Below are positions 791 through 22,282 of a DNA stretch of 24,000 nt, one piece after another. The notes below the pieces were generated by a model, which worked only from the letters and a program-made list of their open reading frames with translations, was not told the origin of the DNA and searched no databases. Where the stretch lies: assembly GCA_963754285.1 (NCBI GenBank), contig CAVWFN010000004.1, positions 214,151 to 238,150 of the forward strand. The letters run 5' to 3'. Each line of letters begins with the position of its first letter. Position 1 is the first letter of the stretch. The position numbers and the translations under genes are program-made. This DNA is from an uncultured Actinomycetota bacterium. Lineage in GTDB: Bacteria; Actinomycetota; Actinomycetes; Mycobacteriales; Jatrophihabitantaceae.

Positions 791-797
791 GGCTTTC

Positions 798-2000
798 CTA
801 TCGGCGTGTCGCCGCCATGGCTTGAGCGTTCAATCGGGCCTTTTCTGTCCGAATCGGCGTCATCGGCACCGCCAGCAGCGCGAAAACGCCCGCAAATGCG
901 AAGGCGAGGCCGTATCGCGCATCCCCGATCACGGCGGCGAGCATGGGCGCCGTCGCGACCGCGGCGATGTTCTGGACGGTGTTCTGCACGCCGAGAGCCC
1001 GACCCGACCACGACGTTCCGGCGAACTCCGCAACCGCCGTGTACCCGAGCCCGTTGTCGGCCACCGTGACCACAGCACCCAGCGCGAACCCGACCACGAT
1101 CCAGCCCTGGTCGAGCTCGGCGGCGAGTGCGATCGCCGCCATCAGGACGGCGCTGGCCACAGCCAGTTGGCGCATCGGGCCGAGCCGGCTGCGGACCCGG
1201 TCCGACCACACTCCGGACGCGATCCGGCCGGCCGCCCCGGCAGCCTGGAACGCGAAGATCCACCGGCCCGCGACGGCGCTGTCCCAGTGCCGCTGGCTGA
1301 CGAGATAGGTCAGCGTGAACGTCGCGACCGCGAACTGCGGGACGACGAGCAGCGCGCTGGACACGTGGATGCGCGCGAGCGTTCTGGCGCCCCGGTACGG
1401 CGAGCCCGGTTCCGGCGCGCCCGGAGCACGTTCCGGGCGTGGCGGGTCGGCCACGACCGCGTACACCGCGATGGACGCGAGCAGGCACAGCACCGCGGGG
1501 AACAGCAGCGCATCGCGGGCGCCCACCGAGTCGGCCAGCGGCGGCAACACCAGCGCGGCGAGGGCGACACCGAGCGGTTGCGCTGTCTGCCTCGTCCCCA
1601 TTGCCAGCCCGCGCTCGTGCACCGGGAACCAGCCCATCACCACCCGTCCGCTCGCGGCGTTGACCGAGGCGGCCGAGGCGCCGGCGAGGGCGAGCAGCAC
1701 CGCGACCGCGGCAAGGTTTGTCACGAGCGGGACTGCGCAGAGCAGGACGCCGGCACCGGCGACGCCGGTCACGATGACCAGCCGCTCGCCTGCGCGATCG
1801 GCCAGCGCGCCCCAGGCAATGAGCGTCGCCAGCAACCCGACGATCGGCGCGGACACGAGCAGGCTGGCCTGGACGAGCGACAGCCCGTCCCGGGAACGCA
1901 GGACGGGGACGAGCATCGGGATGCCGTAGAGGAACGAACAGGTCGCGGCCTGTGCCAGGGTGCCGACGGCGAGGATCGCCCAGCGCTGCCGACTTGCCAC
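798..2000 (-). CDS. MFS transporter
   Basis: C-terminal 400 codons of ORF 798..2837. GTG at 2000 is in frame. The part of the ORF upstream of 2000 overlaps the hydrolase gene and is Arg/Pro-rich shadow sequence. Many hydrophobic segments; GALADRAGERLV resembles MFS motif A. The exact start is uncertain. Confidence 0.8.
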   Translation of the reverse strand: MASRQRWAILAVGTLAQAATCSFLYGIPMLVPVLRSRDGLSLVQASLLVSAPIVGLLATLIAWGALADRAGERLVIVTGVAGAGVLLCAVPLVTNLAAVAVLLALAGASAASVNAASGRVVMGWFPVHERGLAMGTRQTAQPLGVALAALVLPPLADSVGARDALLFPAVLCLLASIAVYAVVADPPRPERAPGAPEPGSPYRGARTLARIHVSSALLVVPQFAVATFTLTYLVSQRHWDSAVAGRWIFAFQAAGAAGRIASGVWSDRVRSRLGPMRQLAVASAVLMAAIALAAELDQGWIVVGFALGAVVTVADNGLGYTAVAEFAGTSWSGRALGVQNTVQNIAAVATAPMLAAVIGDARYGLAFAFAGVFALLAVPMTPIRTEKARLNAQAMAATRR

Positions 2001-2921: not shown

Positions 2922-3368
2922 TTACGGAGTGGCGACGGCGACCGAGCTCGGCATCACCACGACCGGGCAATCCGCCTTCAGCACGACCTGCGGCGCGGTG
3001 AGGCTGCTCATCATCGACGCGAGCCGCCCCGGCCGTGGCTCGCCCACCACCAACAGGTGCGCACCGCGCGCGGATGAGAGCAGCGCGTTGACCTCGCTGC
3101 CGTGCACGACGACGCAGTCGACGCCGACATCGCTGCCGAGCGCGCTCTGCACGAAGCCGCGCAGAGCGAGGTCGGCATCACGTGCGTAGTCATCGCTCGC
3201 GCCCGCGGTCGATGCCGGCGGACGGCCGCCCGGTGCGGCCGGTGGCCGCGGTGCGCGCCAAGCCATGACGGCGCGCAGCGGGACGTTGCGAAGCCGCGCT
3301 TCCGCCGCGGCCCACCGCAGCGCGCTCGGCGAACCCGTCGTCGGGCTGACCGCGACGACGATGCTCAT
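2922..3368 (-). CDS. Universal stress protein (UspA family)
   Basis: ORF 2922..3368 (148 aa). MSIVVAVSPTTGSPSALRWAAAEA... then ...LLVVGEPRPGRLASMMSSLTAPQVVLKADCPVVVM, the characteristic Usp C-terminal pattern. Confidence 0.8.
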   Translation of the reverse strand: MSIVVAVSPTTGSPSALRWAAAEARLRNVPLRAVMAWRAPRPPAAPGGRPPASTAGASDDYARDADLALRGFVQSALGSDVGVDCVVVHGSEVNALLSSARGAHLLVVGEPRPGRLASMMSSLTAPQVVLKADCPVVVMPSSVAVATP

Positions 3369-3426
3369 TCGGGGCCCCCGCGAAAGTGCGAAGCGTTCTT
3401 TGCGGAGCAGTTTCGTGGGGTGTTGG

Positions 3427-4932
3427 TCATGTCTTTGCCGCTTCCGGCGAGATGCCTTGCTCGGGACGTTTCGTCGCCGACAGCGGGTTGGCGATGTCCT
3501 CGAGCGACTTGCGTTCGGAGTCCACGCCGATGAACCAGGCGACCAACGCTCCGATGAGCATGATCACCGCGCCGATCACGTAGCCCCAGCTCAACGGTCC
3601 CGGCTTCACGTGCGCGTTGTTCGCACCGCCGATGAGGTGACCGAACAGGAACGGCGCAACCACGCCGCCCGCGCCTTGCGACAGCGCGAAGAAGTACGAG
3701 ATCGCCTGGCCACGAAGTTCCAGCGGGAAGATCTCGCTCACCGTCAGGTACGCCGAGGACGCTCCTGCCGAGGCGAAGAAGAAGATGACACACCAGACGA
3801 TCGTCTGGGTGGTCGCGGTGAGATCGCCCTTGTCGAACAACCACGCCGAGATCAGCAACAGGATCGACGACAACCCGTAGGTCAACAAGATCATCTTTCG
3901 TCTGCCGACCACGTCGAACAGATGCCCGAGAAGCAGCGGACCGAGCAGGTTGCCGATGGCGAACGGGAAGAAGTAGTACGGGATGCTGTCCGTCCCGACC
4001 TTGTAGAACACCGACAGCACCAGCGCGTAACTGAAGAAGATCGCGTTGTACAGGAACGCCTGGGTCACCATCATCGTGAAGCCGTAGATGGAACGCCGCG
4101 GATACTTCCCGAAGAACACCTTCGTCAGCTCGACCAGGCCCAGCCTCGGTGGCTCGGTCACCTCGAGCGCCTTGCTCTCGTCGACGGGCTCGAGCTCGAC
4201 GCCCTGCGCCTTCACTCGCTCCTCGATCTCGTCGACCGTACGCTCGGCCTCGTCGTTGCGGCCGTGGGTCATCAACCAACGCGGGCTCTCCGGGATCGAG
4301 CGGCGCAGGAAGATGATGATCAGACCGAGCACCGGGCCGATGAAGAAGCCGATGCGCCAGCCCCAGTCGATCGACACGTGGCTGGAGAACAGATACAGGC
4401 CCAGACCTGACCCGAGTGCCGCGCCGCCCCAGTACGTGCCGTTGACAGCGATGTCGACACGACCGCGGTACTTGGACGGGATCAGTTCGTCGATCGCCGA
4501 GTTGATCGCCGTGTACTCGCCGCCGATGCCCGTACCGGCGACGAAGCGGCAGATCAGCAACGACCAGAAGTTCCACGCGAAGCCACCGAGCCCGCTGCCG
4601 ACCAGGTAGATCGCCAGCGTCACGATGAACAGCTTCTTGCGGCCGAGCTTGTCGGTCAGCCGTCCGAAGACGAGTGCACCGACCACCTCGCCGGCGAGGT
4701 AGACCGATCCGAGTGCACCGACCTGGCCGGTGCTCAAGGCGAGCGTCTTCGGGTCGGCCAGGATCGGCGCGACGAGGGCCACGATCTGGATCTCGAGGCC
4801 GTCGAGGATCCACGAAACTCCGAGGCCGACCACGACCAGCCAGTGGAATCTCGTCCATGGCAGGCGGTCCATCCGGGCCGGGACGAGGCTGCGGACCGAG
4901 GTGGTGCCGGGCTCAGCTGTTGTTGCGGTCAT
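3427..4932 (-). CDS. MFS transporter, sugar-porter / metabolite:H+ symporter type
   Basis: ORF 3427..5091, with the start trimmed to ATG at 4932 (MTATTAEPG; GAGGAA 6 nt upstream). Motifs GRLTDKLGRKKLF, PESPRWL and PLELRGQ; 12 hydrophobic segments. Confidence 0.9.
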   Translation of the reverse strand: MTATTAEPGTTSVRSLVPARMDRLPWTRFHWLVVVGLGVSWILDGLEIQIVALVAPILADPKTLALSTGQVGALGSVYLAGEVVGALVFGRLTDKLGRKKLFIVTLAIYLVGSGLGGFAWNFWSLLICRFVAGTGIGGEYTAINSAIDELIPSKYRGRVDIAVNGTYWGGAALGSGLGLYLFSSHVSIDWGWRIGFFIGPVLGLIIIFLRRSIPESPRWLMTHGRNDEAERTVDEIEERVKAQGVELEPVDESKALEVTEPPRLGLVELTKVFFGKYPRRSIYGFTMMVTQAFLYNAIFFSYALVLSVFYKVGTDSIPYYFFPFAIGNLLGPLLLGHLFDVVGRRKMILLTYGLSSILLLISAWLFDKGDLTATTQTIVWCVIFFFASAGASSAYLTVSEIFPLELRGQAISYFFALSQGAGGVVAPFLFGHLIGGANNAHVKPGPLSWGYVIGAVIMLIGALVAWFIGVDSERKSLEDIANPLSATKRPEQGISPEAAKT

Positions 4933-10333: not shown

Positions 10334-10798
10334 ATGGCAGACCGAGGCGCGTTACGCGCGAAGTATCTGCATGCCGATCGTCCACCGAGCACTGCTCGCG
10401 GACTGCATCACACCGCCCTGATCAGCAGCGACGTCGAAGCGACGATCCGCTTCTATCAGGACGTGCTCGGGTTCCCGTTGACCGAGCTGATCGAGAACCG
10501 CGACTATCCCGACTCGTCACATTTCTTCTTCGACATCGGCAACGGGAACCTGCTCGCCTTCTTCGACTTCCCCGGCCTCGAGGTGCAGCCATATGCCGAA
10601 GTGCTCGGCGGCTTGCACCACATCGCGATCTCGGTCGACCAGCAGCACTGGGACGGCGCAGTGCGCCGCCTGAGCGATGCCGGGGTCGACCACGAGGTGC
10701 ACAGCGCGGTGTCGGTCTACTTCCGTGATCCGGACGGCGCGCGACTCGAACTGATCGCCGACCCATTGGGCGAGATGTACGGCTCGCACGTGCTCTAG
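10334..10798 (+). CDS. VOC / glyoxalase-bleomycin-resistance-dioxygenase family protein
   Basis: Last 154 codons of ORF 9350..10798, from ATG at 10334. GLHHTALISSDVEATIRFYQDVLGFPL...GGLHHIAISV...VYFRDPDGARLELI are the paired beta-alpha-beta-beta-beta VOC motifs. Confidence 0.9.
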   Translation: MADRGALRAKYLHADRPPSTARGLHHTALISSDVEATIRFYQDVLGFPLTELIENRDYPDSSHFFFDIGNGNLLAFFDFPGLEVQPYAEVLGGLHHIAISVDQQHWDGAVRRLSDAGVDHEVHSAVSVYFRDPDGARLELIADPLGEMYGSHVL

Positions 10799-12021
10799 CT
10801 GCCGACTCCGTCCGGCCAATCAATCCGGTCGAAGTCCGCCCGGAGGCGCGCGGCGAACCGCGCGTCCAACGCGCCGGCCGCAGCGATCCGTCCCAGCAGC
10901 CGCTCGCGCGACACGTTCTGTCCGGGCACGCCGTGCACGCGACAGTTGTGCACGATCGCGCGCAGTCGATCACGTTCGTCGCGTGGCAGCGTCGGATGGT
11001 CGTTGACCACTGCGCCCAACGCAGCAAGCCGACCAGCGTTCGTGCGCACGGACGTCTTGTGCGCCGCCAACACGAAACCCTCGTCGCGCACGATGCCTTC
11101 GACGGCGGCGAGGAATCCCGTGCGCGCACGATGCAATGGCCGCGCGCCGCTGAAGACGAGATCGTCGACATAGCGCGTGTACGTCGCGTCGAAACGGTCG
11201 GCGAGCGCGGCAAGCCGACGATCCAGCCCGAACGCGACTGCGTTGGCCAGCAACGGCGATGTCGGTGCGCCCTGCGGCAGGTGCGGAACGACCAGACGGT
11301 CGCGGAGCCTGCGCTGCGCCTCGATGCCGACCATGTCGCGTGCTCGCGGAACGTCGCGCCACACGGGTGCGGGCATCGCCGTCGTGCACAGGCCGGCAAT
11401 CGCATCGCCCACGGCGGGAGCCACGTCGAAGGCTCGCAACAGACCCCGCACTCGTCCCACCGTCACTGTGGGGAAGAAGCTCTCCAGATCGAGGTGCACG
11501 AGCACCGCTGCACCTGCATGCGGTGTCAGCGCCGACGCCACCGATCGCGACCGCACCCCGCCGTGCGCGCAGTCGTGCAGCGGGATCGCCGCGGTCAAGC
11601 GCCGCAGCAGCCGCCGCTGGATCTGTTTCAACCGCGACTTCGGCGCAGCCACCAGCCGCACGCCGCCACGCTTGGGCAGAGCCCGCCACCGGTAGTGCTG
11701 CAACTTCGGTGCGGCGCGGCGCTCGCGGCTTTGCAGATCGGCGAACCACATCAGCTCGCCGAGATCGACGGCGAGGATCTGGCACAACGCCGAGAGGTCC
11801 GTACGCGGATCGAGCAGGCCAGGCGGCTCGGCGAGGAAGGCTGTCAGCTCCTCGCGCGCGGGAGGTTCGGCGAAGCGGCGGCGCAGCGCGCCGGCGAGGG
11901 CGACCACGTCATCGTCGATGAGCAGCCGCCGGCGCGCTCGGGCGATCCGCAGCTGGATCGCATCGACCTGCCACGGCCCGTCCAGAATGACGTCGACAAG
12001 ATCGTCGTCGCCGGAGGTCAT
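10795..12021 (-). CDS. Retron-type reverse transcriptase (RNA-directed DNA polymerase), stand-alone
   Basis: ORF 10795..12108, with ATG at 12021 preferred (MTSGDDD...). RT motifs: ALPKRGGVRLVAAPKSRLKQIQRRLL (RT1); HLDLESFFPTV (RT2); LPQGAPTSPLLAN at 11254-11280 (RT4); RYVDDLVFSG with YVDD at 11161-11172 (RT5); GRLAALGAVVND...LRAIVHNCRVHG, which resembles the retron VTG / thumb region. No maturase, endonuclease or DGR-type motifs. Confidence 0.9.
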   Translation of the reverse strand: MTSGDDDLVDVILDGPWQVDAIQLRIARARRRLLIDDDVVALAGALRRRFAEPPAREELTAFLAEPPGLLDPRTDLSALCQILAVDLGELMWFADLQSRERRAAPKLQHYRWRALPKRGGVRLVAAPKSRLKQIQRRLLRRLTAAIPLHDCAHGGVRSRSVASALTPHAGAAVLVHLDLESFFPTVTVGRVRGLLRAFDVAPAVGDAIAGLCTTAMPAPVWRDVPRARDMVGIEAQRRLRDRLVVPHLPQGAPTSPLLANAVAFGLDRRLAALADRFDATYTRYVDDLVFSGARPLHRARTGFLAAVEGIVRDEGFVLAAHKTSVRTNAGRLAALGAVVNDHPTLPRDERDRLRAIVHNCRVHGVPGQNVSRERLLGRIAAAGALDARFAARLRADFDRIDWPDGVGS

Positions 12022-12023
12022 GA

Positions 12024-12178
12024 AGCGGGCCGGGGGCGGCTGTTCCCTGACTTGCGCGCCCCGTGCTTCATCTCGTGAAGGTTGAGGGCGTGCGCTGCAA
12101 TGCCACACTCACCGAACTGACCTCGGGGTAGCCCCGAAGTGGTCGACGACCGCCGACCGTCCCTCCCCCGGGCCCGCT
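12024..12178 (-). ncRNA. Candidate structured RNA immediately upstream of the RT (possible retron msr/msd-like or RT-template ncRNA)
   Basis: Long-range inverted repeat: 12162-12178 (cctcccccgggcccgct) vs 12024-12040 (agcgggccgggggcggc). It forms 8+5 bp with one bulge, plus 2 more bp after a mismatch. It encloses three hairpins at 12119-12144, 12081-12113 and 12066-12080. No convincing protein coding. Structure only; no homology evidence. Confidence 0.3.
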
Positions 12179-12320
12179 CCACGCCTTGATTGGATCACGA
12201 GCCGACCTTGACGAAACCGTAGGAGATATCCGGCGCTTGCCGGGATAGCTTGCGTTCGCGGGAGGAATCGGACGTAACCACCCGCGCGAATTTCCCCCGA
12301 ACGCGTCGAGGTTGTTGCGA

Positions 12321-15023
12321 GTGAACCGCCGGATGCCACGTGCTCTGACCGCGCTGTGCGCTGCGGTCATCACCTTTGTCGGCGTCGGCATCTGCACACC
12401 CGCGTCGGCCACACCGACCGGCACGTTCTACGTGTCGAGCGGCGGCCACGACAGCAACACTTGCGACTCGCCGACCTCGACGTGCGCCACGATCGCGGGT
12501 GCACTGATGCAGGCGAGCGCCGGCGACACGATCATCGTCGGCGACGGCACCTATCCCGACCCGGTGACCCTGTCGATGGGGATCACCGTTGAAGGTTGGT
12601 CGTCTCAAACACCTGTTATCACCGCACCGATCACGATCGATGATGCCGGCGCGCCAGTGACGGTCAGCGGCCTCACGTTCGGTGACGGCGGCGGGATCGA
12701 GGTCGACGACAACACCGGGACGACGGCGTTGACGGGCAACACGTTCAGCGATGTGACCGGCCCCGCGATCACGCTGAACGGATCCAACGACCCGAGCAAC
12801 CCGATGGGCGTCACGGTCAGCGGCAACACCGGCAGCGTGCCGGCTGGCGCGCAGCCGATCGCCAGAGCGGCTGCGTCGCGGTGTCGACGGGCGGCGTGCC
12901 CAACGCGATCCGCATCGACGGGGCGACAGTGCATTGCCTGGATCGCCGACCGGCATGACCACCGACGAGGCGCCAACACGCGTCTCGGTGACGGCGGCGC
13001 CGGAACGGCATCTCGACTCGGCGAGCCTCGACGTCGCCGTCACCACAAACTCGGTGAGGCGCCGTCACCAGTCGGATCGCCGATCCGAGCGGCGGCACCA
13101 GCTACGCGCCTGTCCCGCTCACGGGGAGCAATGGGTCTTTCGGCGGATCGCTGACGTCCGCGGATCTCCGTTCGCGGCGACCGGTTCGCTGTCGCCCGGC
13201 GTCACGATCTCGGCCGCGTTGACCGCACCGACCGGTCGCGCCGACGGTGCCGCTCAAGCCTCGACGAGATCGACGGTGGCGATCAGTAGCCCGACACCGT
13301 CGCGACGAATCGTTCCGCCCGACACTGGTCACGCCAACAGCCCGCCGGTCGTGTAACGACCAGAGCGTGACCATCGCGCACGGACAATCGCCACGTCGCA
13401 TCACGCTTCAGCAAGCGACGCTGACGGAGACGGTTGAGGAACTCGCAGACTCCCAGCGGCCGCGCACGGGACGGGCAGTGTCAGTGGGACCGCTCCGAAC
13501 CTGACCTATCAGGCGCCGCGTCGGGGGACTACAGGCCGCAACCGCCTTCACATTCACGGTCACCGATGGAAATAGTGACCCCGCGACACAAACTGTGACG
13601 GTTAACCCGGCACCAAACAGCGTGCCGAGCTACACCGGCCAGAACCTCACCATGGCGCACGGGGCAACCAGCATCGACATCGTGCTCTCAGCTACCGATG
13701 GGGACGCCGGCGACACCCTCGCCTACAGCCACACGCAACCCACCGCCGGGACCGTCACCCAAGGCATAGACGATCACCACCTCACCTACCACGCACCTGT
13801 AGGCGGGCTGCACCAGGCAGCGACGTTCACCTACGCCGTCACCGACGGCTACAGCAACCCGCCCAGCCAAACGATCACCATCAATCCGCCGCCGAACAGC
13901 GTGCCGAGCTACACCGGCCAGAACCTCACCATCCCGCACGGGGCAACCAGCATCGACATCGTGCTCTCAGCTACCGATGGAGACGCCGGCGACACCCTCA
14001 CCTACAGCCACACGCAACCCACCGCCGGGACCGTCACCCAAGGCATAGACGACCACCACCTCACCTACCACGCACCTGCAGGCGGGCTGCACCAGGCAGC
14101 CACGTTCACCTACGCCGTCACCGACGGCTACAGCGACCCGCCCAGCCAAACGATCACCATCAATCCGCCGCCGAACAGCCCGCCGACGCTTAGTACGTCG
14201 TCCCAATCGATCGCGATTGGCGTGCCGGTGAATTCGAGTCAGACGATCACAGTGAATGCGACCGACTCCGACGGCGACATATTGACATACACGCCGTCGA
14301 GCACCGCATTACAAAAGGTGGCGACGAACAAGTTCTCGTACACAGCACCGGCCACGGCCGTGGGCCACACACTCCAGTTCACCGTGACTGTCAGCGATCC
14401 TTACGGTGGTACCGCGATCTCCCAAATAGCGATCTCGGTGGTCCGAGCCGCGTCGCAGGTGACTAAGATTTCGATGTCGCCGTCGCATCCGTCAAGCGCT
14501 GATCACCCGGTGGTAACGGTGACGATGAACTCGGCCGGCAATGAGTCGAATGGTCTTGTCACGATCAAGACCGGCGGGTTCGGCACACCGACGGCAAAGG
14601 TGGTGAACGGGAAGGCGACCAGTCACGTTGCCGCAGTTCCCCGGCGGCGCGCAGAGCATCACCGCGGTCTACGGCGGGACGGCGACGACGGCACCGGCCA
14701 CGTCCAACCAGTTCGGCTTCACGGTCACGAAGGTCGCGAGCAAGATCGCGTTCAAGACCTCTCCCACGCAGTTGACGACGCGCACCAGCAACGCGACGGC
14801 GACGGTCACGGTCACGGCCGGCCCGTTCCGTCCGAGCGGTGGCACCGTGACCATCGACGAGAACGGCAACCGGCTCGCCCAGGGCACGCCGAAGGTCGGT
14901 GTCGTGACGCTGCACCTGCCGCGCTTCTCGCTCGGGCAGCACAACCTGACGGTCGGCTACACCGGTACCGACTCGATCGGTGTCTCGAGCGTCGTCGTGA
15001 TCGAACGCGTCGGGCTGGCCTGA
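12321..15023 (+). pseudogene. Secreted right-handed beta-helix + cadherin-like/Ig-like repeat surface protein; reading frame broken many times
   Basis: GTG at 12321 (GAGG 9 nt upstream). Signal peptide VNRRMPRALTALCAAVITFVGVGICTPASA. Beta-helix-type N-terminus GTFYVSSGGHDSNTCDSPTSTCATIAGALMQASAGDTIIVGDGTY. Protein-like translation then hops between all three frames over 12860-13600, with in-frame stops at 12956, 13152, 13354 and 13502. It continues in the frame of ORF 13595..15067 (93-aa repeats) and shifts at ~14625 into ORF 14628..15023 (LPQFPGGAQSITAVYGGTATTAPATSNQFGFTV, an Ig-like repeat signature). Confidence 0.65.
13616..14173 (+). repeat. Tandem direct repeat, 2 x 279 bp (93 codons), 271/279 identical
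   Basis: Unit A is 13616-13894 and unit B is 13895-14173. I aligned them by eye and found 8 substitutions and no indels. A diverged upstream copy (~13330-13615, frame-broken) and a diverged downstream copy (14174-~14450) flank them. Confidence 0.95.
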
Positions 15024-17555
15024 TCACTCCAACGGGCGCCTCGCGATCGCGGCGGGTGTTCGGCTGAGCAGCCAGGCCCCGGCCGCCGCGACGATCGGCA
15101 GTCCGACGACCAGTGCCGCGAGATCGAGATACGGCGGTTGACCCAGATAGCCGACATCGCGCCAGTGCCACGCGATCAGCGCGAGGTACGCGCCGGCTGT
15201 ACCCAGGACGCCGGCCAGCAGGCCGAGGGCTCCTGCCGACGTGGCGTGCAGCGCACGTCGAGTCCGTCCACCCGCGCCGGCAGCGGTCAGCGTGCGCAGG
15301 TCCTGGGTCGTTTCGCTGCGGATCAGCCCGAGCGTCATCGCGAGCACACCGAGTGCGACGAGCAGGCCGGTGAGCGTCGAGTAGTCGCGCAGCTTGCTCA
15401 GGCTGTGGTCGGGCGACGTCCGCGTCTCGATCGTGATTCCCGACGCCGCGGCGCGGTTGCGTGCGTTCGTGATCTGCGCCGTTGTCAGCGCGCCGGAGGT
15501 CTGGATGAGCCAGCCGACCGGTTCGGCAGTGAACCGTCCGGCGCGCATCCCGGCCGCAGTGATCAACGTGTTCGGCGCCGAGGTGTACACGGGCAGCTTG
15601 CTCGAGTGCTGCACGGTGACCGACGTGAACGTGCGCCCGATTGCCGAACCGAGTTCGGCGTTGCTCAGACCCGACCTCGAGGTCACGATGTCGGCGCCGC
15701 TGCTGATGTCGGCCGGGGAGATTCCGTAGAACCGGAGCACCGCGGAATTGACCACCAGGGGGACGGTGATCTGCATGAATCCGCTGTGCCCGTTCTCGGT
15801 GATCGGGTGGACGAGGCTCACCTGCACCGATCCCGGCGGGGCTCCGGCCGGGGCGGGCGTGGTCAGGTCGTCGGCACCGTCGAGTTGCACCGTCGTGGAG
15901 CTGCCGAGGTCATGCGCGATCGCGGTCGCCACGCCCCGAGCAGCGGTCACAAGGCGCGCGTTCGGCACAGCCGGGTTGCCGGTTTGGCCGCTGGTGGGCG
16001 CTGCGGCAACGGCCGGGCCGTTCTGAGCGTTCGGGTCGCTGAGCCAGACGATGAGCTGGTTGTCCGGCAGATTTCCGGCGGACGAAGACCGGTCGTTGGA
16101 TTGAGTCGCGGCCGCAGTGATCGCGATGGTGGCGGCGATCCCCACAGCAAGGCTCGCCGCGGCGAGCGCCGCGCCCGAGCGGGCTTGGTACCGAGCCAGA
16201 TCACGCAAGGCGAGCCGGACGGCGACCGGTGCGCGGCCGGCAAGCGCGGCCAGCCCCCGGATGCCGAGGGGCGCCAGCAACAGCATCCCGGCCGTCGTGG
16301 CGACGATCCCGCCGACGATCAGGGCGGTGCGCTGCGTGTGCGCGAGAACGAGGCAGACGAAGCCGCCGGCGGCCAGCACCGTCCCGAGCAGCGCGAACCG
16401 ATGCGCGGGTTGCGGTGGGGCAGGTCGGCCCGACAATGCCGACACGATCGGGATCCGCGCAACGCCGCGCGCCGGCCACCACGACGCGACGATCGAGGTC
16501 ACGACGGCGAGCACCCCGGCAGCGAACACCGCCCACCAGGGGAGGTCGAATTCGTCGTACCGGTGCCCGACGACGTTCTCGAACGCCGGGGTGAGGGCCA
16601 GCCAAACGCCGAGGCCGAGGACGACGCCTGCGCCTGCGCCGACGACGCCGACAGCGGCGCCGTTGGCAAGCATCACCCGTCGGACCTGCCGATCGGTCGC
16701 GCCGATCGCGCCGATCATGCCGAGGGCCCGCAGTCTGCGCTGAGCCATCACGGTGAACCCGGCGACGGACAGCAATCCGACGAAAATGAGCCCGATCGTC
16801 GCGAGCAGCAGCACGGCGAGAGCCTGGTTGCGATGCTCCTGCGCAGAGGTGGCGCCGGAGGACGCGATCGACTGGATCGTCCCGGACGGCAGGTGATACG
16901 AGTCGAGTGCGCCCGGATCGGCGTTGAAGAACAGCGACAGGGCGCTCGGTCGAGTGATCGCGCCGGGCGCGACGAGGCCGAACCCGTCCTGCAGGTTCGC
17001 GGGGTCTTCGACCGTGCCGACGACCCGCAACGGCCGGCCGTCGACCGTCCACGTCGCGCCGATCTTCACGTTCAGCACCTGGGCGACCGCGCTCGTGACC
17101 GCGACTTCGCCCGGCCCGGTGGGGTAGCGACCCGACACCAGACTCAGCATCGGCGCGCTGAACGCACCATGCGGATCCTGGGCACGAAGGTCGATCGGCG
17201 TGATCGACCCCGGCACCGGCACCGCCTCGTGCACGATCGCCTCGACCGTCCCGAAGCGCTGCCGCACCGCTGCGATGTCGCGGGTGATTCCAACCGCGCC
17301 AGGACTCCCGATGTCGATGCGCGCATCGGCGTTGCCGAACATGCTTTGGTCGCGACTGTGGACGTTGACGACCAGGCCGAGTCCCACCGTGGTCATGCCG
17401 ACCGACACAACGAGCAGGATCAGCACAAGCAGTTGCTGGCGCCACTCGCGGCGCAGCATCCGCCACGCCCATCGGCGGATCGCGCGGCGCGCCGCCCCGC
17501 GCCGTCGCACCGGTTCGACCGCCTTCATCGGTGGTGGCGGCGCGAGGGTGGTCAT
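15024..17555 (-). CDS. ABC transporter permease, FtsX/MacB-like, with two FtsX domains
   Basis: ORF 15024..17708 trimmed to ATG at 17555 (MTTLAPPPPMKAVEP...), which overlaps the ATPase stop as ATGA. 843 aa with two blocks of TM helices separated by large extracytoplasmic regions; WRMLRREWRQQLLVLILLVV is a typical FtsX N-terminus. Confidence 0.9.
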   Translation of the reverse strand: MTTLAPPPPMKAVEPVRRRGAARRAIRRWAWRMLRREWRQQLLVLILLVVSVGMTTVGLGLVVNVHSRDQSMFGNADARIDIGSPGAVGITRDIAAVRQRFGTVEAIVHEAVPVPGSITPIDLRAQDPHGAFSAPMLSLVSGRYPTGPGEVAVTSAVAQVLNVKIGATWTVDGRPLRVVGTVEDPANLQDGFGLVAPGAITRPSALSLFFNADPGALDSYHLPSGTIQSIASSGATSAQEHRNQALAVLLLATIGLIFVGLLSVAGFTVMAQRRLRALGMIGAIGATDRQVRRVMLANGAAVGVVGAGAGVVLGLGVWLALTPAFENVVGHRYDEFDLPWWAVFAAGVLAVVTSIVASWWPARGVARIPIVSALSGRPAPPQPAHRFALLGTVLAAGGFVCLVLAHTQRTALIVGGIVATTAGMLLLAPLGIRGLAALAGRAPVAVRLALRDLARYQARSGAALAAASLAVGIAATIAITAAATQSNDRSSSAGNLPDNQLIVWLSDPNAQNGPAVAAAPTSGQTGNPAVPNARLVTAARGVATAIAHDLGSSTTVQLDGADDLTTPAPAGAPPGSVQVSLVHPITENGHSGFMQITVPLVVNSAVLRFYGISPADISSGADIVTSRSGLSNAELGSAIGRTFTSVTVQHSSKLPVYTSAPNTLITAAGMRAGRFTAEPVGWLIQTSGALTTAQITNARNRAAASGITIETRTSPDHSLSKLRDYSTLTGLLVALGVLAMTLGLIRSETTQDLRTLTAAGAGGRTRRALHATSAGALGLLAGVLGTAGAYLALIAWHWRDVGYLGQPPYLDLAALVVGLPIVAAAGAWLLSRTPAAIARRPLE

Positions 17556-18274
17556 CGCGACGCGTCCGCGTCCAGCAACGACTCGGGGCCGGCGGCAGGT
17601 GCCGTCTGGTCGACGATGCGTCCGTCGCGCAGGAAGACGACGCGGTCGGCCCACGAGGCGAGCTGCGCGTCGTGCGTGACGACGACGCCGGCGACGCCGC
17701 CTTGGCACGTCTGGCGCACCAATCGCATGACTGCTTCGCCGTTGACCGAGTCGAGGGCGCCGGACGGTTCGTCGGCGAGCAACAGGTGACGGTCACCCAC
17801 GATCGCGCGGGCGATGGCGACGCGTTGGCGTTCGCCGCCGGAGAGTTGGTCGGGGAACCATTCGGCGCGGTCGGACAGGCCGAGCCGCTCGAGAGCATCG
17901 AGGGCGACGGTCTTGGCGTCGCGTGCGGCCGTGCCGTCCAGTTCGAGCGGGAGTGACACGTTCTCGGCGGCGGTCAACCCGGCGAGCAGGTTGAAGTCCT
18001 GGAACACGTAACCGATCGAGCGGCGTCGCAGGGCCGCACGTTGGTTGCGCGAGAGCCGTGCGAGTGACACGTCGCCGACAGTGACCTCGCCGTCCGTCGG
18101 CTCCTCGAGGCTGCCGGCGATCGTGAGCAGCGTGCTCTTGCCCGATCCGCTGGGACCCATCACCGCGACGAGCTCGCCCGGCTCGACGCTCAGGTCGACC
18201 TCGCGCAGTGCGTGCACCTGCGTTGCGCCCGTGCCGTAGAGCTTGCTGACCTTGGCCAGCCGCAGCGCGGTCAT
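17552..18274 (-). CDS. ABC transporter ATP-binding protein (MacB/LolD-like)
   Basis: ORF 17552..18556 trimmed to ATG at 18274 (MTALRLAKVSKLYG). Walker A GPSGSGKST, Q-loop, signature LSGGERQRVAIARA, Walker B LLLADEPSGALD, H-loop VVVTHD. Confidence 0.95.
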   Translation of the reverse strand: MTALRLAKVSKLYGTGATQVHALREVDLSVEPGELVAVMGPSGSGKSTLLTIAGSLEEPTDGEVTVGDVSLARLSRNQRAALRRRSIGYVFQDFNLLAGLTAAENVSLPLELDGTAARDAKTVALDALERLGLSDRAEWFPDQLSGGERQRVAIARAIVGDRHLLLADEPSGALDSVNGEAVMRLVRQTCQGGVAGVVVTHDAQLASWADRVVFLRDGRIVDQTAPAAGPESLLDADASR

Positions 18275-18881
18275 CGGTGCGCCCTGCGCCTCTCGCGCGC
18301 GTTGGCCGGGCCGGACGCGGAGCGGGCTTTCGTCGGCTTCGGCGACATCCGGCGCAGTCGCGCGTCGGCCGCGTCGAGCCAGCGGATCACCGAGTCGAGC
18401 CGGAACAACTCGGCGTCGAGCACGAGCGAGAGGCTGACACCCTCCGCGGCGTCGGCGGAGCTGCCGGTGCGACGTCTCGTTTGACCCGCGTCCATTCCTG
18501 CATCTGCTCGACCACATGGCGGCGGTGCGCCTGGATGACGTCGGCGACATCGACACCGGGCACCTCGATCGCGACGAGAACCTTGATCACGAGTTCGTCG
18601 CGAGGCGGCGCGTCGACATCGGGCGGGGTGCGCAGCCAGGTGTCGAGCTCGCTCGCACCGTCGCCGGTGAGCCGGAACGATTTCTGCGGCCCGGCCTCGT
18701 CGCCATCACCGCCGTCGGACTCGATCAGCCCATCGCGTTCTAGCCGCTGCAAGGTCGTGTAGACCTGCCCGACGTTGAGCGGCCACACCTCGCCGGTGCG
18801 CTGCTCGAACTCGTCGCGCAGCTGCAGGCCGTACTTCGGGCCTTCGCTCAGCAGCGCCAGCAGTGCGTGTCGAACGCTCAT
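18271..18881 (-). pseudogene. PadR-family transcriptional regulator; frame interrupted once (-1) near 18460-18490
   Basis: ATG at 18881: MSVRHALLALLSEGPKYGLQLRDEFEQRTGEVWPLNVGQVYTTLQRLERDGLI (PadR winged helix). The expected C-terminal domain (GSSADAAEGVSLSLVLDAELFRLDSVIRWLD) is in the frame of ORF 18271..18495, whose TGA overlaps the ATPase ATG as ATGA. The span is 611 nt = 3n-1. Confidence 0.8.
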
Positions 18882-19822: not shown

Positions 19823-20596
19823 TCAGATGGACTGGTCCGGCCGCTGCGCGGCGCGTGCGAGCGACGCGATGTCGGCGACGATCGCCGGGCGGGCCGCCGC
19901 GTCGGACATCAGCGTTCGCGCCAGCTGAGTCAGATGGGTGCCGGAGTCGCGTGCGTACATGCGGAGCAATCGAAACGCGTCGGCGACGGTAACGCCCAGC
20001 CGCTGCCGGAGCAGACCCTTGGCCTGCTCGACGACAATGCGGCTGGTCAGCGCGCTGCGTAGGTGCGGCAGGACTGCGTCCTTGGTCGGCGGGTGTTCTT
20101 GCACGATCGCAACGCTCGCGACGTGGGCCAGGCTGCGCCCGACTAATAGATCGGCCTCGTTCAGATCGCCCACCTCGGCGCCGAACAGTCCCAGCGCTCC
20201 GAGGACGCCGCCTGCCACTGTCATCGGCACGGCATGCACCGAGACGAACCCGGCCTCGCGAGCTGCCGGCACGAACCGCGGCCACCGATCGAGCGACGCG
20301 CTCAGGTCGGCGACGGACACCGCTGCGCCACTCGTGTAGCTGTCGCGGCAGGGTCCTTCGTCGGCCTGCAGCTCGAACAGCTCGATCTCCTGCGTCTTGT
20401 CCGAGGTGGCGGCCATCAAGCGCAACTGCCCGAGCGGGTCGGCCAGCAGCAGCCCTGCGGAACTCACATCGAGCAGTTGGGCACACCGCTCGGTCAGCTC
20501 GGTGAGCAACTCCACGACGTCGAAGTCGTGCAGCAGGCTGTCGACCAGCGTGACCACCGCATCGAGCACACGTGCTTCACGTGCGTTTTCAGTCAT
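19823..20596 (-). CDS. GAF + ANTAR domain RNA-binding antiterminator-type regulator (paralog 1)
   Basis: ORF 19823..20596 (257 aa). DFDVVELLTELTERCAQLL, EGPCRDSY (GAF), then RIVVEQAKGLLRQRLGVTVADAFRLLRMYARDSGTHLTQLARTLM (ANTAR). Confidence 0.9.
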   Translation of the reverse strand: MTENAREARVLDAVVTLVDSLLHDFDVVELLTELTERCAQLLDVSSAGLLLADPLGQLRLMAATSDKTQEIELFELQADEGPCRDSYTSGAAVSVADLSASLDRWPRFVPAAREAGFVSVHAVPMTVAGGVLGALGLFGAEVGDLNEADLLVGRSLAHVASVAIVQEHPPTKDAVLPHLRSALTSRIVVEQAKGLLRQRLGVTVADAFRLLRMYARDSGTHLTQLARTLMSDAAARPAIVADIASLARAAQRPDQSI

Positions 20597-20639
20597 CGCT
20601 TACTCCGCCCCTTCCGTCGACCGGTGACGATCGAGCCGA

Positions 20640-21368
20640 TCAGCGGTCGTCATCGAACACAAGCCGGTGCTCGAGGATGTCGCGCGCAACGTCGGTCGCG
20701 CTTCGGCCCACCGAGTAGGCGTACGCGCGAAGCCGCACCAGCGCGTCCGCCGGCTCGATCTCCAGCTGCCCGACCAGCATTCCCGTGGCCTGCGCGACCT
20801 CGGACCGCGTGATCGAATTCAACTCGGTCCACGCGAAGCTGTCCGGATCGGCGATCGCGGCCTGCAGATCGCCACCGAGCAGATCCAGCAGTGGAAGTTC
20901 CGCCAGTTCGGCCGCAATCAGCGCGCCGGCGAGTTCGTCACTGCCGAGTGCACCCGGTCGGGAACGGAACAGATCCAGCGCGCCGATGTACTCACCGGCG
21001 ACAAGCACGGGCACGGCGAACACCCCATGCACACCGCGCGCCAGCATGGCCGGCCCATATATCGGCCAGCGCGTTTCCTCTGGCCGATCGGGGTCGGCGA
21101 GATCGATCACCAGGACCGGCGCTCGTATCGACACCGATTCCAGACACGGCCCCTCGCCGAGAGTGAACTGCAACTCGTCGTACGACCGTGCCTGGGCATC
21201 GCTGGCCCCCAGGGTCCCGGTATTCGATCCGTCGAACACCAAGGAGATGGCAGCGGCGTCCACCTCGAACAGGTCGACGCAGGCGGCACACAACCGGTCG
21301 GCGGCCGCGACGCCACGGCGATCGCCTACTGCGCGTACGAACGAGTCCTGTGCCGACGTCACCGGCAC
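20640..21368 (-). CDS. GAF + ANTAR domain regulator (paralog 2)
   Basis: ORF 20640..21368 (242 aa). GEGPCLESV (GAF), then SEVAQATGMLVGQLEIEPADALVRLRAYAYSVGRSATDVARDIL (ANTAR). Confidence 0.9.
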   Translation of the reverse strand: MPVTSAQDSFVRAVGDRRGVAAADRLCAACVDLFEVDAAAISLVFDGSNTGTLGASDAQARSYDELQFTLGEGPCLESVSIRAPVLVIDLADPDRPEETRWPIYGPAMLARGVHGVFAVPVLVAGEYIGALDLFRSRPGALGSDELAGALIAAELAELPLLDLLGGDLQAAIADPDSFAWTELNSITRSEVAQATGMLVGQLEIEPADALVRLRAYAYSVGRSATDVARDILEHRLVFDDDR

Positions 21369-21459
21369 GCGCCGCGCAATGTCATGTGCTCAGTGTGCGC
21401 GATGTCCAGCAGCGCACGACAGCCGCATGGTCACGCCACCGCAAAACGGTGATACTTGG

Positions 21460-22282
21460 ATGGTGACCGACTACGACGCCCAGTCCGGTCGGGACATGCC
21501 CGCCGAGCCCTTGCTGAGCGACGCGGAGGCCGAGTCGCAGGACCAGGACGTGCTTTCCGCGGTCCGGGGATTGACGGGGCTGGTCGCCGATATCGACGAC
21601 CTCGACGAGGTTCTTGTCCACATCGCGCGGTTCGCGGTGTCCTCGGTCCCAGGCGCCGAAGGCGCTGGGGTGACCCTGATCCGTGCAGCAGACGGTCCGC
21701 CGTCGGTGGTGGCGTGGGCAGTGACCGACGCCTTTGTCCGCGAGGTCGATAACCTCCAGTACGACATCTGCAAGGAAGGACCCTGTCTTACCGCGATGCA
21801 GACCGGGCGGTCGCTCATCAGCGGGTCGCTCGGCAGCGACGCCCGCTGGCCGCGCTTCGGCGGCCGGGTCGCTCGCCTACGGGTGCACTCGGCGTTGTCG
21901 CTGCCACTCGTCACCCGTGGTGAGGTGGTCGGGGCGCTCAACATCTACGCCCATGAGCGGGACGCCTTCACCGAACACGCACTCCGTCTCGGCGAGCAGT
22001 TCGCCCGGCCCGCTGCCGTATCGGTCGCCAACATCCAGCTGCTCCATGCGGCGCATACGCGCGCGATCCAACTGCAGACGGCGCTGACCAACCGTGCGGT
22101 GATCGATCAGGCGATCGGGATCATCCGCAGCAGGGCCGGTGGTACCGCGCAAGAAGGCCTTCGACAGGCTGCGGCAGATCAGCCAGGCGGAGAACGTCAA
22201 GCTCACCCTGGTCGCGCAGCGGCTCGTCGACGAGGCCGTTCGCCGAGCCCACGCGCGACACAGTCAGTCACGAGCGCGCTGA
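21460..22282 (+). pseudogene. GAF + ANTAR domain regulator (paralog 3); +1 frame interruption at ~22153-22157
   Basis: In-frame ATG at 21460 within ORF 20785..22287. DLDEVLVHIARFAV, KEGPCLTAM (GAF), RAVIDQAIGIIRSRAGGTAQE. The rest of the ANTAR helix hairpin (AFDRLRQISQAENVKLTLVAQRLVDEAVRRA...*) is read only after skipping one nucleotide in caagaaGGcc. The stop in that frame is at 22280-22282. The span is 823 nt = 3n+1. Confidence 0.8.

What the first reader, a model, noticed from the sequence alone, without database searches (positions are those of the whole stretch)
10795..12021. Orphan retron-type reverse transcriptase with no co-oriented effector gene
The 408-aa protein has the full RT palm set:
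- RT1: ALPKRGGVRLVAAPKSRLKQIQRRLL
- RT2: HLDLESFFPTV
- RT4: LPQGAPTSPLLAN
- RT5: YVDD

The retron-like accessory regions are variant. RSVASALTPH sits where retrons have RSxxxNAxxH. ALGAVVND sits where retrons have VTGLxVN. This is followed by LRAIVHNCRVHG.

It lacks group II intron X/En domains and lacks the DGR IGNxxSQ motif. About 70-100 N-terminal residues (MTSGDDDLVDVILDGPWQVDAIQLRIARARRRLLIDDD...) match nothing I recognise.

The gene stands alone. The downstream neighbour is convergent (VOC protein) and the upstream neighbour is divergent. Canonical retrons and most DRT systems carry an effector in the same operon. The known single-gene exceptions rely on an upstream ncRNA. That makes this a candidate minimal or novel RT system.
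Basis: partly seen in the sequence, partly recalled or inferred. Interest (0 to 1): 0.75.

Follow-up and report, generated by a model that had tools for sequence, protein, structure and literature searches.

The report
Effector-less clade-11 retron with ncRNA
This is a retron, a bacterial reverse transcriptase with its own structured template RNA just upstream, from an already catalogued actinobacterial lineage (clade 11) that carries no partner "effector" gene and whose cellular role is still unknown.

Summary
A 408-aa retron-type RT is encoded at 10795-12021 (minus strand).

The gene is not truly alone. The ~160 nt directly 5' of its ATG (about 12023-12182, minus strand) form a conserved structured RNA with retron msr-msd architecture:
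- covarying terminal inverted repeats (a1/a2)
- a conserved G after a1
- two short hairpins
- a template hairpin

The RNA lies upstream of the RT in 68 of 81 loci by nhmmer and in seven more by covariance model. 94% of cells are paired, against 39-50% when partners are slid.

The ncRNA I derived for relative L047 (Blastococcus DSM 46838) is 99.4% identical to the ncRNA published for retron "terminal 1856". That retron is listed as RT clade 11 with no effector type. [quoted passage not shown] Several members make RT-DNA in E. coli.

No gene family is linked to the RT across the family. The neighbours are housekeeping genes, and synteny indicates vertical inheritance.

Verdict: a new member of a known kind. 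The "minimal" reading is right and the "novel system" reading is not. The biological function remains open.

The parts
10795..12021 (-). Retron reverse transcriptase gene (408 aa, clade 11). An N-terminal six-helix, family-specific domain (aa 1-95) is followed by the RT fingers/palm/thumb. It contains YVDD, region X as ALTPH and region Y as LGAVVN.
   Evidence: ORF and translation. RVT_1. PADLOC RT_other 404 bits and RT_outgroup 383 bits. AF2 model pLDDT 88.6. Foldseek and HMMER top hits are retron RTs Eco2, Ec86, Eco7/Ec78, Ec83 and Eco8. dN/dS 0.19-0.34 against close relatives.
12023..12182 (-). Retron msr-msd non-coding RNA (about 160 nt), ending 1-2 nt before the RT ATG.
   Evidence: blastn and nhmmer conservation in 68 of 81 sequences, always 5' of the RT and on its strand. 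RNAalifold gives 38 pairs, 25 with compensatory changes. 94.3% of cells paired against 39-50% slid, and 0/500 shuffles reach the observed values. Single-sequence MFE -88.2 kcal/mol, z = -3.58. Covariance-model hit at window 12010-12188(-), 126 bits, the only copy in the window. The homologous RNA of L047 is 99.4% identical to the published clade-11 ncRNA of terminal 1856.
12162..12178 (-). a1, the 5' arm of the terminal inverted repeat (AGCGGGCCCGGGGGAGG). It has one bulged C and one A-C mismatch against a2. In the window's own fold the stem extends outward to 12182.
   Evidence: Helix 1 of the consensus structure: 14 of 15 pairs show changes on both sides. Window fold.
12161..12161 (-). Candidate branching (priming) G, the first unpaired G after a1 in the conserved G-G-A-C/U-G context. 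This is inferred.
   Evidence: Alignment column 51 is invariant G and column 52 is a nearly invariant G. The position is analogous to the G that follows a1 in clade-11 ncRNAs whose RT-DNA starts at the base 5' of a2. The 2'-5' chemistry was not tested.
12141..12158 (-). msr hairpin 1 (GGUCGGC-GGUC-GUCGACC).
   Evidence: Helix 2: 96% paired, 4 of 7 pairs with changes on both sides.
12121..12139 (-). msr hairpin 2 (CUUCGGGG-CUA-CCCCGAGG), the most conserved element. The same CCGGGG-NNN-CCCCGG hairpin is present in all published clade-11 ncRNAs that were read.
   Evidence: Helix 3: 99% paired. Census ncRNA sequences. Still detectable by blastn in a Rhodocyclaceae locus.
12040..12117 (-). Predicted msd (template) region. 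The outer limits are inferred by homology. It includes the covarying hairpin 12058-12089 (tip CUUCA-CGAGA-UGAAG at 12066-12080). The predicted msDNA is about 64-78 nt, complementary to this stretch, with its first template base at 12040.
   Evidence: Helices 4 and 5 covary. Measured RT-DNAs of clade-11 retrons 1840, 1894, 1913, 1914 and 1928 map from 3-17 nt after hairpin 2 (within its 3' strand in 1840) to the base 5' of a2 (about 5 nt short in 1928, a few nt into a2 in 1840 and 1914). The projection onto the window is inference.
12023..12039 (-). a2, the 3' arm of the terminal inverted repeat (CCGCCCCCGGCCCGCUU).
12189..12194 (-). Position of the family's conserved -10-like hexamer. It reads TCCAAT here (preceded by TGA), whereas most relatives have TANNNT.
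   Evidence: TANNNT lies 9-10 nt upstream of a1 in 53 of 66 loci. The window, L001 and L002 lack the A at position 2. The generic sigma-70 scan finds nothing. Promoter function is inferred.

Best explanation
The locus is a complete stand-alone retron of RT clade 11: an msr-msd non-coding RNA gene (about 12182 to 12023, minus strand) followed directly by its reverse transcriptase gene (12021 to 10795). There is no effector gene.

Shown here:
- The RT belongs to the retron clade and keeps the catalytic YVDD and every family-invariant residue.
- The upstream RNA is conserved and covaries in the retron layout: a1/a2 terminal stem, a conserved G after a1, two msr hairpins and an msd hairpin.
- The same RNA-RT pair recurs across Actinobacteria and in some Betaproteobacteria.
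- No protein-coding gene is linked to the pair across the family.

Inferred mechanism, from established retron biochemistry and from RT-DNA sequenced for other clade-11 members:
1. A promoter just upstream of a1 gives an msr-msd-RT transcript.
2. The RT binds the msr hairpins.
3. The a1/a2 stem places the 2'-OH of the G after a1 (about 12161) next to the template base 5' of a2 (12040).
4. The RT copies the msd back towards hairpin 2. This yields an msDNA of about 65-80 nt that stays joined to the msr RNA and bound to the RT.

What that RT-msDNA complex does in the cell is not established for any clade-11 retron. My ranking is as follows:
- A chromosomally fixed, vertically inherited function that does not need a cis-encoded toxin is somewhat more likely.
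- A guard complex for an unlinked effector is somewhat less likely.
For: RT identity:
- PADLOC RT_other 2.4e-121 and RT_outgroup 5.4e-115, with typed retron RTs next.
- NCBIfam retron St85, TIR and Ec67 models are the best hits, though below their cut-offs.
- Foldseek top 18 hits and HMMER top 14 hits are all retron RTs.

ncRNA:
- Conserved 5' of the RT in 68 of 81 sequences.
- 25 of 38 pairs are compensatory.
- 94.3% of cells are paired against 39-50% when slid. There are 390 double-change cells against 44-84, and 0/500 shuffles reach the observed values.
- The window RNA folds the same way alone, z = -3.58.
- The covariance model finds one copy in the window and copies 5' of the RT in seven betaproteobacterial loci.

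Clade assignment:
- L047 is Blastococcus DSM 46838. Its ncRNA is 99.4% identical to the census ncRNA of terminal 1856, which is listed as clade 11 with a blank type.

msDNA synthesis by relatives that were given only RT plus ncRNA in E. coli:
- Rhodococcus 1928 reaches 2.5x Eco1 by PAGE.
- Gordonia 1894 reaches 0.16x.
- RT-DNAs were sequenced for 1840, 1894, 1913, 1914, 1925 and 1928.

No effector:
- No gene family other than the RT is present in more than 18 of 81 loci.
- The window neighbours are housekeeping or signalling genes with no PADLOC hits.
- The method does detect WGR_XIII and SWIM_XIII next to the type XIII outlier L080.

Selection and inheritance:
- dN/dS is 0.19-0.34.
- RT identity tracks the identity of flanking housekeeping genes, Spearman 0.26-0.58.
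- There are no close relatives on phages, and plasmid matches are at most 44% identical.
Against: - No experiment was done on this locus.
- The closest tested relative (terminal 1856, 52% identical RT) gave no RT-DNA by PAGE or sequencing in E. coli. Several other clade-11 members were also PAGE-negative, so activity cannot be assumed.
- The window and its two nearest relatives have a degenerate -10 hexamer (TCCAAT), and the window's a1/a2 stem has a bulge and an A-C mismatch.
- The RT genes of the two nearest relatives each carry a 1-nt frameshift. These are probably assembly errors but could be decay.
- The retron-specific motifs are variant (ALxPH for NAxxH, LGA for VTG).
- Clade-11 membership rests on linkage through L047 and on architecture. 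It does not rest on a phylogeny with the reference set.
- Only 24 kb of the genome is visible, so an unlinked effector cannot be excluded.
Confidence: 0.82

Rival explanations
1. Functional sub-hypothesis A: it is an anti-phage retron whose toxin or effector is encoded elsewhere in the genome. The RT-msDNA complex guards that effector in trans.
For: Nearly all characterised retrons are tripartite defence systems (PMC7736814). [quoted passage not shown] Only 24 kb of the genome can be inspected here.
Against: Defence systems are normally co-inherited as compact operons in variable islands. Here the RT sits among housekeeping genes at lineage-stable positions and co-diverges with them. No defence or mobile-element genes lie within about 10 kb. 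Mestre et al. note that most genomes with orphan retrons lack homologues of the known retron-associated proteins.
Confidence: 0.25
2. Functional sub-hypothesis B: it is a domesticated retron. The RT-msDNA ribonucleoprotein itself performs a cellular, non-defence role such as regulation, nucleic-acid sequestration or stress response, so no toxin partner is needed.
For: The family shows lineage-stable synteny with housekeeping genes and co-divergence with them. The RT and its family-specific N-terminal domain are under purifying selection. The family is essentially absent from phages and small plasmids. Mestre et al. propose vertical inheritance and domestication for such clades. The window's RT start codon is buried in the a1/a2 stem, which suggests self-regulated expression.
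Against: No phenotype is known for any clade-11 retron. Synteny is conserved only within sub-lineages and the genomic site differs between them, so relocation or transfer has occurred. Related RTs occur in Betaproteobacteria and on a few plasmids.
Confidence: 0.35
3. The window copy is an inactive or decaying relic that no longer makes msDNA.
For: The -10 hexamer is degenerate in the window, L001 and L002. The RT genes of L001 and L002 are frameshifted. The tested relative 1856 gave no RT-DNA in E. coli. The window's a1/a2 stem has a bulge and a mismatch.
Against: The window ORF is intact and keeps every family-invariant residue. dN/dS is 0.2-0.3, including within this sub-lineage. The sequence after each frameshift is still conserved at protein level, as expected from long-read consensus errors. 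The ncRNA scores 126 bits against the family model, close to the other full-length members tested in the same search (129-152 bits).
Confidence: 0.1
4. The conserved upstream RNA is a cis-regulatory 5' leader (riboswitch or attenuator) of the RT mRNA and is not an msr-msd template. The RT would then work on some other substrate, which would make this a novel non-retron RT system.
For: The RNA abuts and partly sequesters the start codon. Rfam has no matching family.
Against: The architecture is point-for-point that of retron ncRNAs. Homologous clade-11 ncRNAs are experimentally reverse-transcribed from exactly the predicted msd segment when co-expressed with their RT. The RT is nested among retron RTs by sequence and by fold.
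Confidence: 0.03

Closest known systems
Retron RT clade 11, the stand-alone (msr-msd)-RT cassettes of Mestre et al. 2020 (NAR 48:12632). Examples are census terminals 1807-1928, such as Blastococcus sp. DSM 46838 (1856), Nakamurella (1840), Gordonia (1894), Nocardia (1913) and Rhodococcus koreensis (1928).
   Same: It has the same RT family: 52% identity to the RT of L047, which carries the ncRNA published for terminal 1856. It has the same ncRNA architecture and the same conserved CCGGGG-NNN-CCCCGG hairpin. The ncRNA lies immediately 5' of the RT. No effector type is assigned. The hosts are actinobacterial and the context is chromosomal.
   Different: This particular sequence comes from an uncultured actinobacterium, and its nearest genome representatives are 81-82% identical. 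The -10 hexamer is degenerate. The a1/a2 stem runs into the start codon. The msd sequence differs from those of the tested members.
Type XIII retrons (RT clade 10: Mx162, Mx65, Sa163, Ne144).
   Same: It is the next-best typed PADLOC RT profile (RT_XIII, 241 bits). These RTs are also long, with an N-terminal extension. Mestre et al. also report signs of vertical inheritance for them.
   Different: Type XIII retrons carry WGR/HEAT-ARM and SWIM/DEDE accessory genes. These were found next to L080 (937 and 736 bits) but are absent from the window and from every clade-11-like locus. The RT_XIII profile matches only from residue 76 onwards, so the N-terminal domain is not shared.
Retron-Eco5 (Ec107)-like branch of clade 2, the other effector-less retron group.
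   Same: [quoted passage not shown]
   Different: It belongs to a different RT clade (PADLOC RT_Ec107-like scores only 133 bits here). It has a different ncRNA and different hosts (Gammaproteobacteria and Bacillota).
Retron-Eco1 (Ec86) and other structurally solved retron RTs (Eco2, Eco7/Ec78, Ec83, Eco8).
   Same: It has the same RT fold and the same region X/Y positions (HMMER E 5e-36; Foldseek E about 1e-15). The presumed priming mechanism, from a branching G after a1, is the same.
   Different: Identity is only about 20-23%. Those RTs lack the N-terminal six-helix domain, have canonical NAxxH and VTG motifs, and work with cis-encoded effectors.

Membership tests
Retron (general) | The reverse transcriptase belongs to the retron RT clade. 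| tested here: met
   The best PADLOC, NCBIfam, PDB-sequence and PDB-fold matches are all retron RTs. Group II intron, DRT and DGR models score far lower.
Retron (general) | [quoted passage not shown] | tested here: inconclusive
   Aligned to Ec86, the motifs read ALTPH and LGA. Only the H and the G, which PMC7736814 calls the most conserved residues, are kept. The motifs are variant but positionally equivalent.
Retron (general) | A contiguous ncRNA has terminal inverted repeats a1/a2, msr hairpin(s) and an msd stem-loop. | tested here: met
   covariation supports all five helices, and the RNA is always directly 5' of the RT on the same strand.
Retron (general) | A conserved branching G lies at the 3' end of a1 and primes through its 2'-OH. 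| tested here: inconclusive
   An invariant or nearly invariant GG follows the a1 stem (alignment columns 51-52, window 12162/12161). The branch chemistry cannot be tested in silico.
Retron (general) | It produces msDNA (RT-DNA). | not testable with these tools
   Published data cover relatives only. Clade-11 members 1840, 1894, 1913, 1914, 1925 and 1928 gave RT-DNA in E. coli. Members 1856 and 1912 gave none.
Retron (general, tripartite definition) | An associated effector gene or fused effector domain is present. | tested here: not met
   No conserved linked gene exists in 81 loci. The window neighbours have no defence-model hits. The N-terminal domain has no enzyme-like or known fold. The positive control L080 was detected. 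Lack of an effector is itself characteristic of clade 11.
Retron RT clade 11 (Mestre et al. 2020) | The RT groups phylogenetically with the clade-11 reference sequences. | tested here: inconclusive
   The link is indirect but strong. L047 is a family member from Blastococcus DSM 46838, and its ncRNA is 99.4% identical to that of clade-11 terminal 1856. No tree with the reference set could be built because the supplement is not held.
Retron RT clade 11 (Mestre et al. 2020) | [quoted passage not shown] | tested here: met
   The architecture and the conserved hairpin 2 and msd-tip motifs are shared with the census clade-11 ncRNAs. No accessory gene is present.
Retron type XIII | WGR/HEAT-ARM and SWIM accessory genes lie adjacent to the RT. 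| tested here: not met
   They are absent from the window and from the clade-11-like loci, and present only in L080.
Group II intron RT / maturase | A maturase (X) domain with or without an En domain, plus intron RNA. | tested here: not met
   Pfam finds RVT_1 only. TIGR04416 scores 27.6 bits against a 300-bit cut-off. No Rfam intron hit was found.
DRT / UG-Abi RTs | The protein matches Drt/UG profiles. | tested here: not met
   Drt2 scores 28.6 bits against a 390-bit cut-off, and Drt3a 16.1 against 200. DRT structures rank below the retron RTs.

The most novel reading that the evidence does not exclude
Clade-11 retrons, this one included, may not be defence systems at all. They could be vertically inherited, chromosomally fixed msDNA-producing modules with a cellular role. 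In that reading the family-specific N-terminal helical domain replaces the effector as the functional interface. RT synthesis would be self-limited, because the a1/a2 stem of the ncRNA occludes the start codon, or because the RT is translated from a leaderless mRNA after processing.
Probability: 0.3. Interest if true: 0.65.

Novelty: new member of a known kind. Interest (0 to 1): 0.3.

Why it matters
On its own the locus adds one more member to a catalogued retron lineage.

Its value is as a clean example of the unresolved class of effector-less retrons:
- It has an intact RT under purifying selection.
- Its ncRNA has strong covariation support.
- It sits among housekeeping genes and appears vertically inherited.
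- It has no toxin partner.

If such retrons have a non-defence function or a trans-acting partner, that would broaden the current view of retrons as tripartite abortive-infection systems.

The compact ncRNA with a short msd (about 65-80 nt) may also interest genome-editing work. Several clade-11 retrons outperform Eco1 in human-cell editing in the published census.

Tried and rejected
- Rfam finds nothing for the ncRNA, either at gathering thresholds over the whole window or in E-value mode on 11950-12330. The single hit has E = 8.5 on the opposite strand. There are no tRNAs.
- The generic sigma-70 promoter and intrinsic-terminator scan of 10600-12500 gives no hits. The conserved TANNNT box was found only by comparing loci.
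- The first related-loci run failed, and the repeat worked.
- The look-up of encoding contigs for the identical protein P0001 returned "not on record", so the source contig could not be retrieved.
- The Mestre et al. supplementary tables are not held, so no reference-set phylogeny was possible. Signature peptides were absent from the census supplement, which lists ncRNAs and no RT proteins.
- The longer GTG start at 12108 was rejected because it would read through the conserved structured RNA.
- Sub-lineage neighbours were considered as effectors. These were IMPase-like, radical-SAM, small membrane protein, LLM oxidoreductase, GGDEF-EAL and HrpA genes. They were rejected because they are housekeeping and lineage-restricted.
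- The ABC-ATPase match to PADLOC mad3/mad8 (17552-18556) was judged to be generic P-loop similarity in a transporter operon.
Full report
**1. Observation**

The minus strand carries an ORF from 12021 (ATG) to 10795 (TAG), encoding 408 aa. A longer GTG start at 12108 is possible on paper.

Pfam recognises only RVT_1 (residues 116-327, E 2e-16). The group II intron RT/maturase, Drt2 and Drt3a models score far below their cut-offs.

The downstream gene is a convergent glyoxalase/VOC protein, and its stop codon overlaps the RT stop (10795-10798). Beyond it lies a YceI gene. The upstream ORF 12312-13154 is divergent. The description is accurate.

**2. What the protein is**

Against PADLOC the best profiles are RT_other (404 bits, covering residues 8-404) and RT_outgroup (383 bits). 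RT_XIII follows at 241 bits, and then the other typed retron RTs.

A profile of the family hits Ec86 RT at E 5e-36, and its 14 best PDB sequences are all retron RTs. An AlphaFold model (mean pLDDT 88.6) matches retron RT structures (Eco2/Ec67, Ec86, Eco7/Ec78, Ec83, Eco8) at Foldseek E from 1e-16 to 1e-10. G2L4, DRT2, group II intron and DGR RTs match at about 1e-8 or weaker.

In the Ec86 alignment the retron region X motif NNATPH corresponds to the family's TALAPH, and region Y VTGLVIS to LGAVVN. The H and the G are kept, and Mestre et al. call these the most conserved residues. The catalytic YVDD and 70-odd other positions are invariant among 29 diverse homologues.

**3. The gene is not alone: an msr-msd RNA lies directly upstream**

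*Conservation.* blastn with the 700 nt upstream of the ATG showed that the proximal ~160 nt are conserved far beyond the close relatives. Iterated nhmmer found the element in 68 of 81 sequences (the window plus 80 genome loci). It is always on the RT strand and always directly 5' of the RT.

*Layout.* The alignment has the retron ncRNA layout:
- Terminal inverted repeats that covary. The window has GGGCC(C)GGGGG...CCCCCGGCCC, L061 has GGGACGGGGG...CCCCCGTCCC, L007 has GGGACGCAGG...CCTGCGTCCC, and the Geodermatophilaceae have a 20-bp GTGCGCGGCGGGGAGGGCAG...CTGCCCTCCCCGCCGCGCAC.
- A conserved GGAC/U just after a1.
- Two short hairpins.
- A loosely structured linker.
- A hairpin whose tip covaries (CTTCA/TGAAG, GTTCAC/GTGAAC, CTGCG/CGCAG, GTGCGC/GCGCAC).
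- A short spacer, then a2.

*Formal tests.* RNAalifold predicts 38 pairs, 25 of them with compensatory double changes. On that structure 94.3% of cells are paired, against 39-50% when partners are slid by 1-3 columns. Double-change cells number 390 against 44-84, and none of 500 column shuffles reaches the observed values. The window RNA folded alone adopts the same structure (-88.2 kcal/mol, z = -3.58).

*Wider search.* A covariance model built from the alignment finds one copy in the window (12010-12188, minus strand, 126 bits). It also finds copies directly 5' of the RT in seven betaproteobacterial relatives. Rfam has no matching family.

**4. It is a known lineage**

*Prior description.* Mestre et al. 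2020 divided retron RTs into 11 clades. They state that clade 11 is essentially restricted to Actinobacteria and has two to three msr-msd consensus structures. [quoted passage not shown]

*Census listing.* The retron census of Khan et al. lists terminals 1807-1928 as clade 11 with the type column empty. These include Blastococcus sp. DSM 46838 (terminal 1856).

*Link to this family.* My locus L047 is from Blastococcus tunisiensis DSM 46838. The ncRNA I delineated there without prior knowledge is 99.4% identical over 163 nt to the census ncRNA of terminal 1856. The RT adjacent to it is 52% identical to the window RT. That ties the family to clade 11.

*Recent survey.* A 2026 survey treats clade 11 as an established lineage with ncRNA families A and B. 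It assigns the lineage low novelty priority because it lacked consistent distinguishing features.

**5. Experimental knowledge on relatives**

In the census, RT plus ncRNA alone were expressed in E. coli.

| Terminal | Organism | RT-DNA by PAGE, relative to Eco1 |
|---|---|---|
| 1928 | Rhodococcus koreensis | 2.5x |
| 1894 | Gordonia | 0.16x |
| 1925 | Rhodococcus corynebacterioides | 0.06x |
| 1913 | Nocardia | 0.02x |
| 1875 | Myxococcus | 0.02x |

- 1840 and 1914 were PAGE-negative but still gave sequenced RT-DNA.
- 1856 and 1912 gave none.

Mapping the sequenced RT-DNAs onto their ncRNAs gives consistent template limits. The 3' limit is usually the base just 5' of a2. It lies about 5 nt short of a2 in 1928, and it reaches a few nt into a2 in 1840 and 1914. 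The 5' limit lies 3-17 nt 3' of the conserved CCGGGG-NNN-CCCCGG hairpin, or within its 3' strand in 1840.

Projected onto the window, the template would be about 12117/12103 to 12040. The msDNA would be about 64-78 nt, and the priming G about 12161. This projection is inference.

**6. No effector**

ORFs from all 81 loci were clustered. Apart from the RT and ORFs overlapping it, no family occurs in more than 18 loci. The larger clusters are lineage-specific housekeeping synteny:
- Jatrophihabitantaceae-type MAGs: an IMPase-like gene upstream, and a small membrane protein plus a radical-SAM futalosine-type gene downstream.
- Modestobacter: a luciferase-like monooxygenase.
- The window's subgroup: a response-regulator-SpoIIE phosphatase and a hybrid histidine kinase.

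The whole 24-kb window encodes ordinary genes. None of the neighbours tested against PADLOC matches a defence model, except for generic ABC-ATPase similarity in a transporter operon. There are no integrases or transposases.

As a positive control, the most distant locus L080 (30% identity) has neighbours that score 937 bits against WGR_XIII and 736 bits against SWIM_XIII. It is therefore a type XIII retron, and the approach does detect partners when they exist.

The N-terminal six-helix domain has no Pfam match and no PDB fold match. It is found only at the N-terminus of this RT family (397 of 1.84 billion representatives; the short hits are fragments). Some members, such as L003, lack its first ~70 residues. 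Nothing marks it as an enzyme.

**7. Evolutionary behaviour**

Within syntenic groups, RT identity correlates with the identity of flanking housekeeping genes (Spearman 0.26-0.58). The pairs are not independent, so this is a trend only.

dN/dS against close relatives is 0.19-0.34, both for the N-terminal domain and for the RT core.

No close relatives are on phages (at most 30% identity). Plasmid matches are at most 44% identical and sit mostly on megabase replicons.

This fits long chromosomal residence with occasional relocation, and differs from the island-hopping typical of defence systems.

**8. Mechanism and confidence**

I commit to the following. The locus is a functional-looking clade-11 retron. 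It transcribes msr-msd-RT from a promoter abutting a1. It should synthesise a branched msDNA of about 65-80 nt, primed from the G after a1.

- Identity as a clade-11 retron: about 0.85.
- msDNA synthesis in the native host: about 0.7.

The downstream biology is unknown. I rank the options as follows:
- a self-contained or domesticated role: 0.35
- a trans-encoded effector: 0.25
- an inactive relic: 0.1
- a non-retron system: 0.03 or less

**9. Verdict**

That check shows a canonical retron ncRNA and places the locus in a lineage described in 2020. The finding is a new member of a known kind and is of modest interest. The real open question is what effector-less retrons do, and it is shared by the whole clade.

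Noticed in passing
window 12189-12194 (-), and the equivalent position in L003-L079: A TANNNT hexamer (TACGGT, TAGCGT, TAGGGT and similar) sits 9-10 nt upstream of the a1 stem in 53 of 66 related loci. This fits a dedicated -10 box that starts the ncRNA at a1. The window, L001 and L002 instead have TCCAAT preceded by TGA, with no A at position 2.
   Followed up: partly
window 12019-12025 and 12178-12182 (-): The RT start codon lies 1 nt beyond the last a2 pair. In the window's MFE fold the A and U of the AUG pair with the 5' GUGGAG extension of a1, and there is no room for a Shine-Dalgarno sequence. Across the family the start codon is 1-19 nt after a2 in most loci. This suggests translation gated by the ncRNA fold, or leaderless translation after processing.
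   Followed up: partly
L001:6001-7240 and L002:6001-7240: In the two closest relatives (81-82% aa identity) the RT gene carries one 1-nt insertion, at a different site in each. The shifted frame then continues with a well-conserved C-terminus. These are probably long-read MAG consensus errors, but recent inactivation is not excluded.
   Followed up: partly
L003:~6060 onwards; also homologues P0009-P0015 (334-351 aa): Some family members start at the LCRLLDID...ELAWFAD helix and lack the first ~70 residues of the N-terminal helical domain. That part is therefore dispensable or variably annotated.
   Followed up: no
L080:675-5418 (+), upstream of its RT: The most distant locus retrieved (Parvicellaceae, 30% identity) is a type XIII retron. 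Its co-oriented neighbours score 937 bits against WGR_XIII (a WGR/HEAT-ARM protein) and 736 bits against SWIM_XIII. It served as a positive control for effector detection.
   Followed up: yes
L062:7114-9009 and L064:7250-9124 (+): In two Candidatus Methylophosphatis MAGs a GGDEF-EAL protein is encoded co-oriented about 230-290 nt downstream of the RT. The window itself has a GGDEF fragment at 2-829 (-), which is not adjacent to the RT. This is probably coincidental synteny within one genus.
   Followed up: partly
window 12312-15067 (+): This region encodes a secreted protein with no Pfam match (12312-13154). It also encodes a Big_9/cadherin-like protein with near-identical tandem repeat units (13595-15067). 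The translations degrade into Arg/Pro-rich sequence while another frame (14628-15023) continues Ig-like sequence. That suggests frameshifts or one larger broken surface-protein gene. The region coincides with strongly negative GC skew (-0.15 to -0.22 at 13000-14500).
   Followed up: no
window 19823-22287: Three GAF-ANTAR RNA-binding antiterminator-type regulator ORFs are clustered here: 19823-20596 (-), 20640-21368 (-) and 20785-22287 (+). The last two overlap on opposite strands, so at least one call is probably spurious.
   Followed up: no
H14: plasmid NZ_CP046569.1 (Dietzia sp., 46.8 kb), 3339-4148: A 41%-identical RT of this broader family sits on a small actinobacterial plasmid. The lineage is therefore not exclusively chromosomal.
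   Followed up: no
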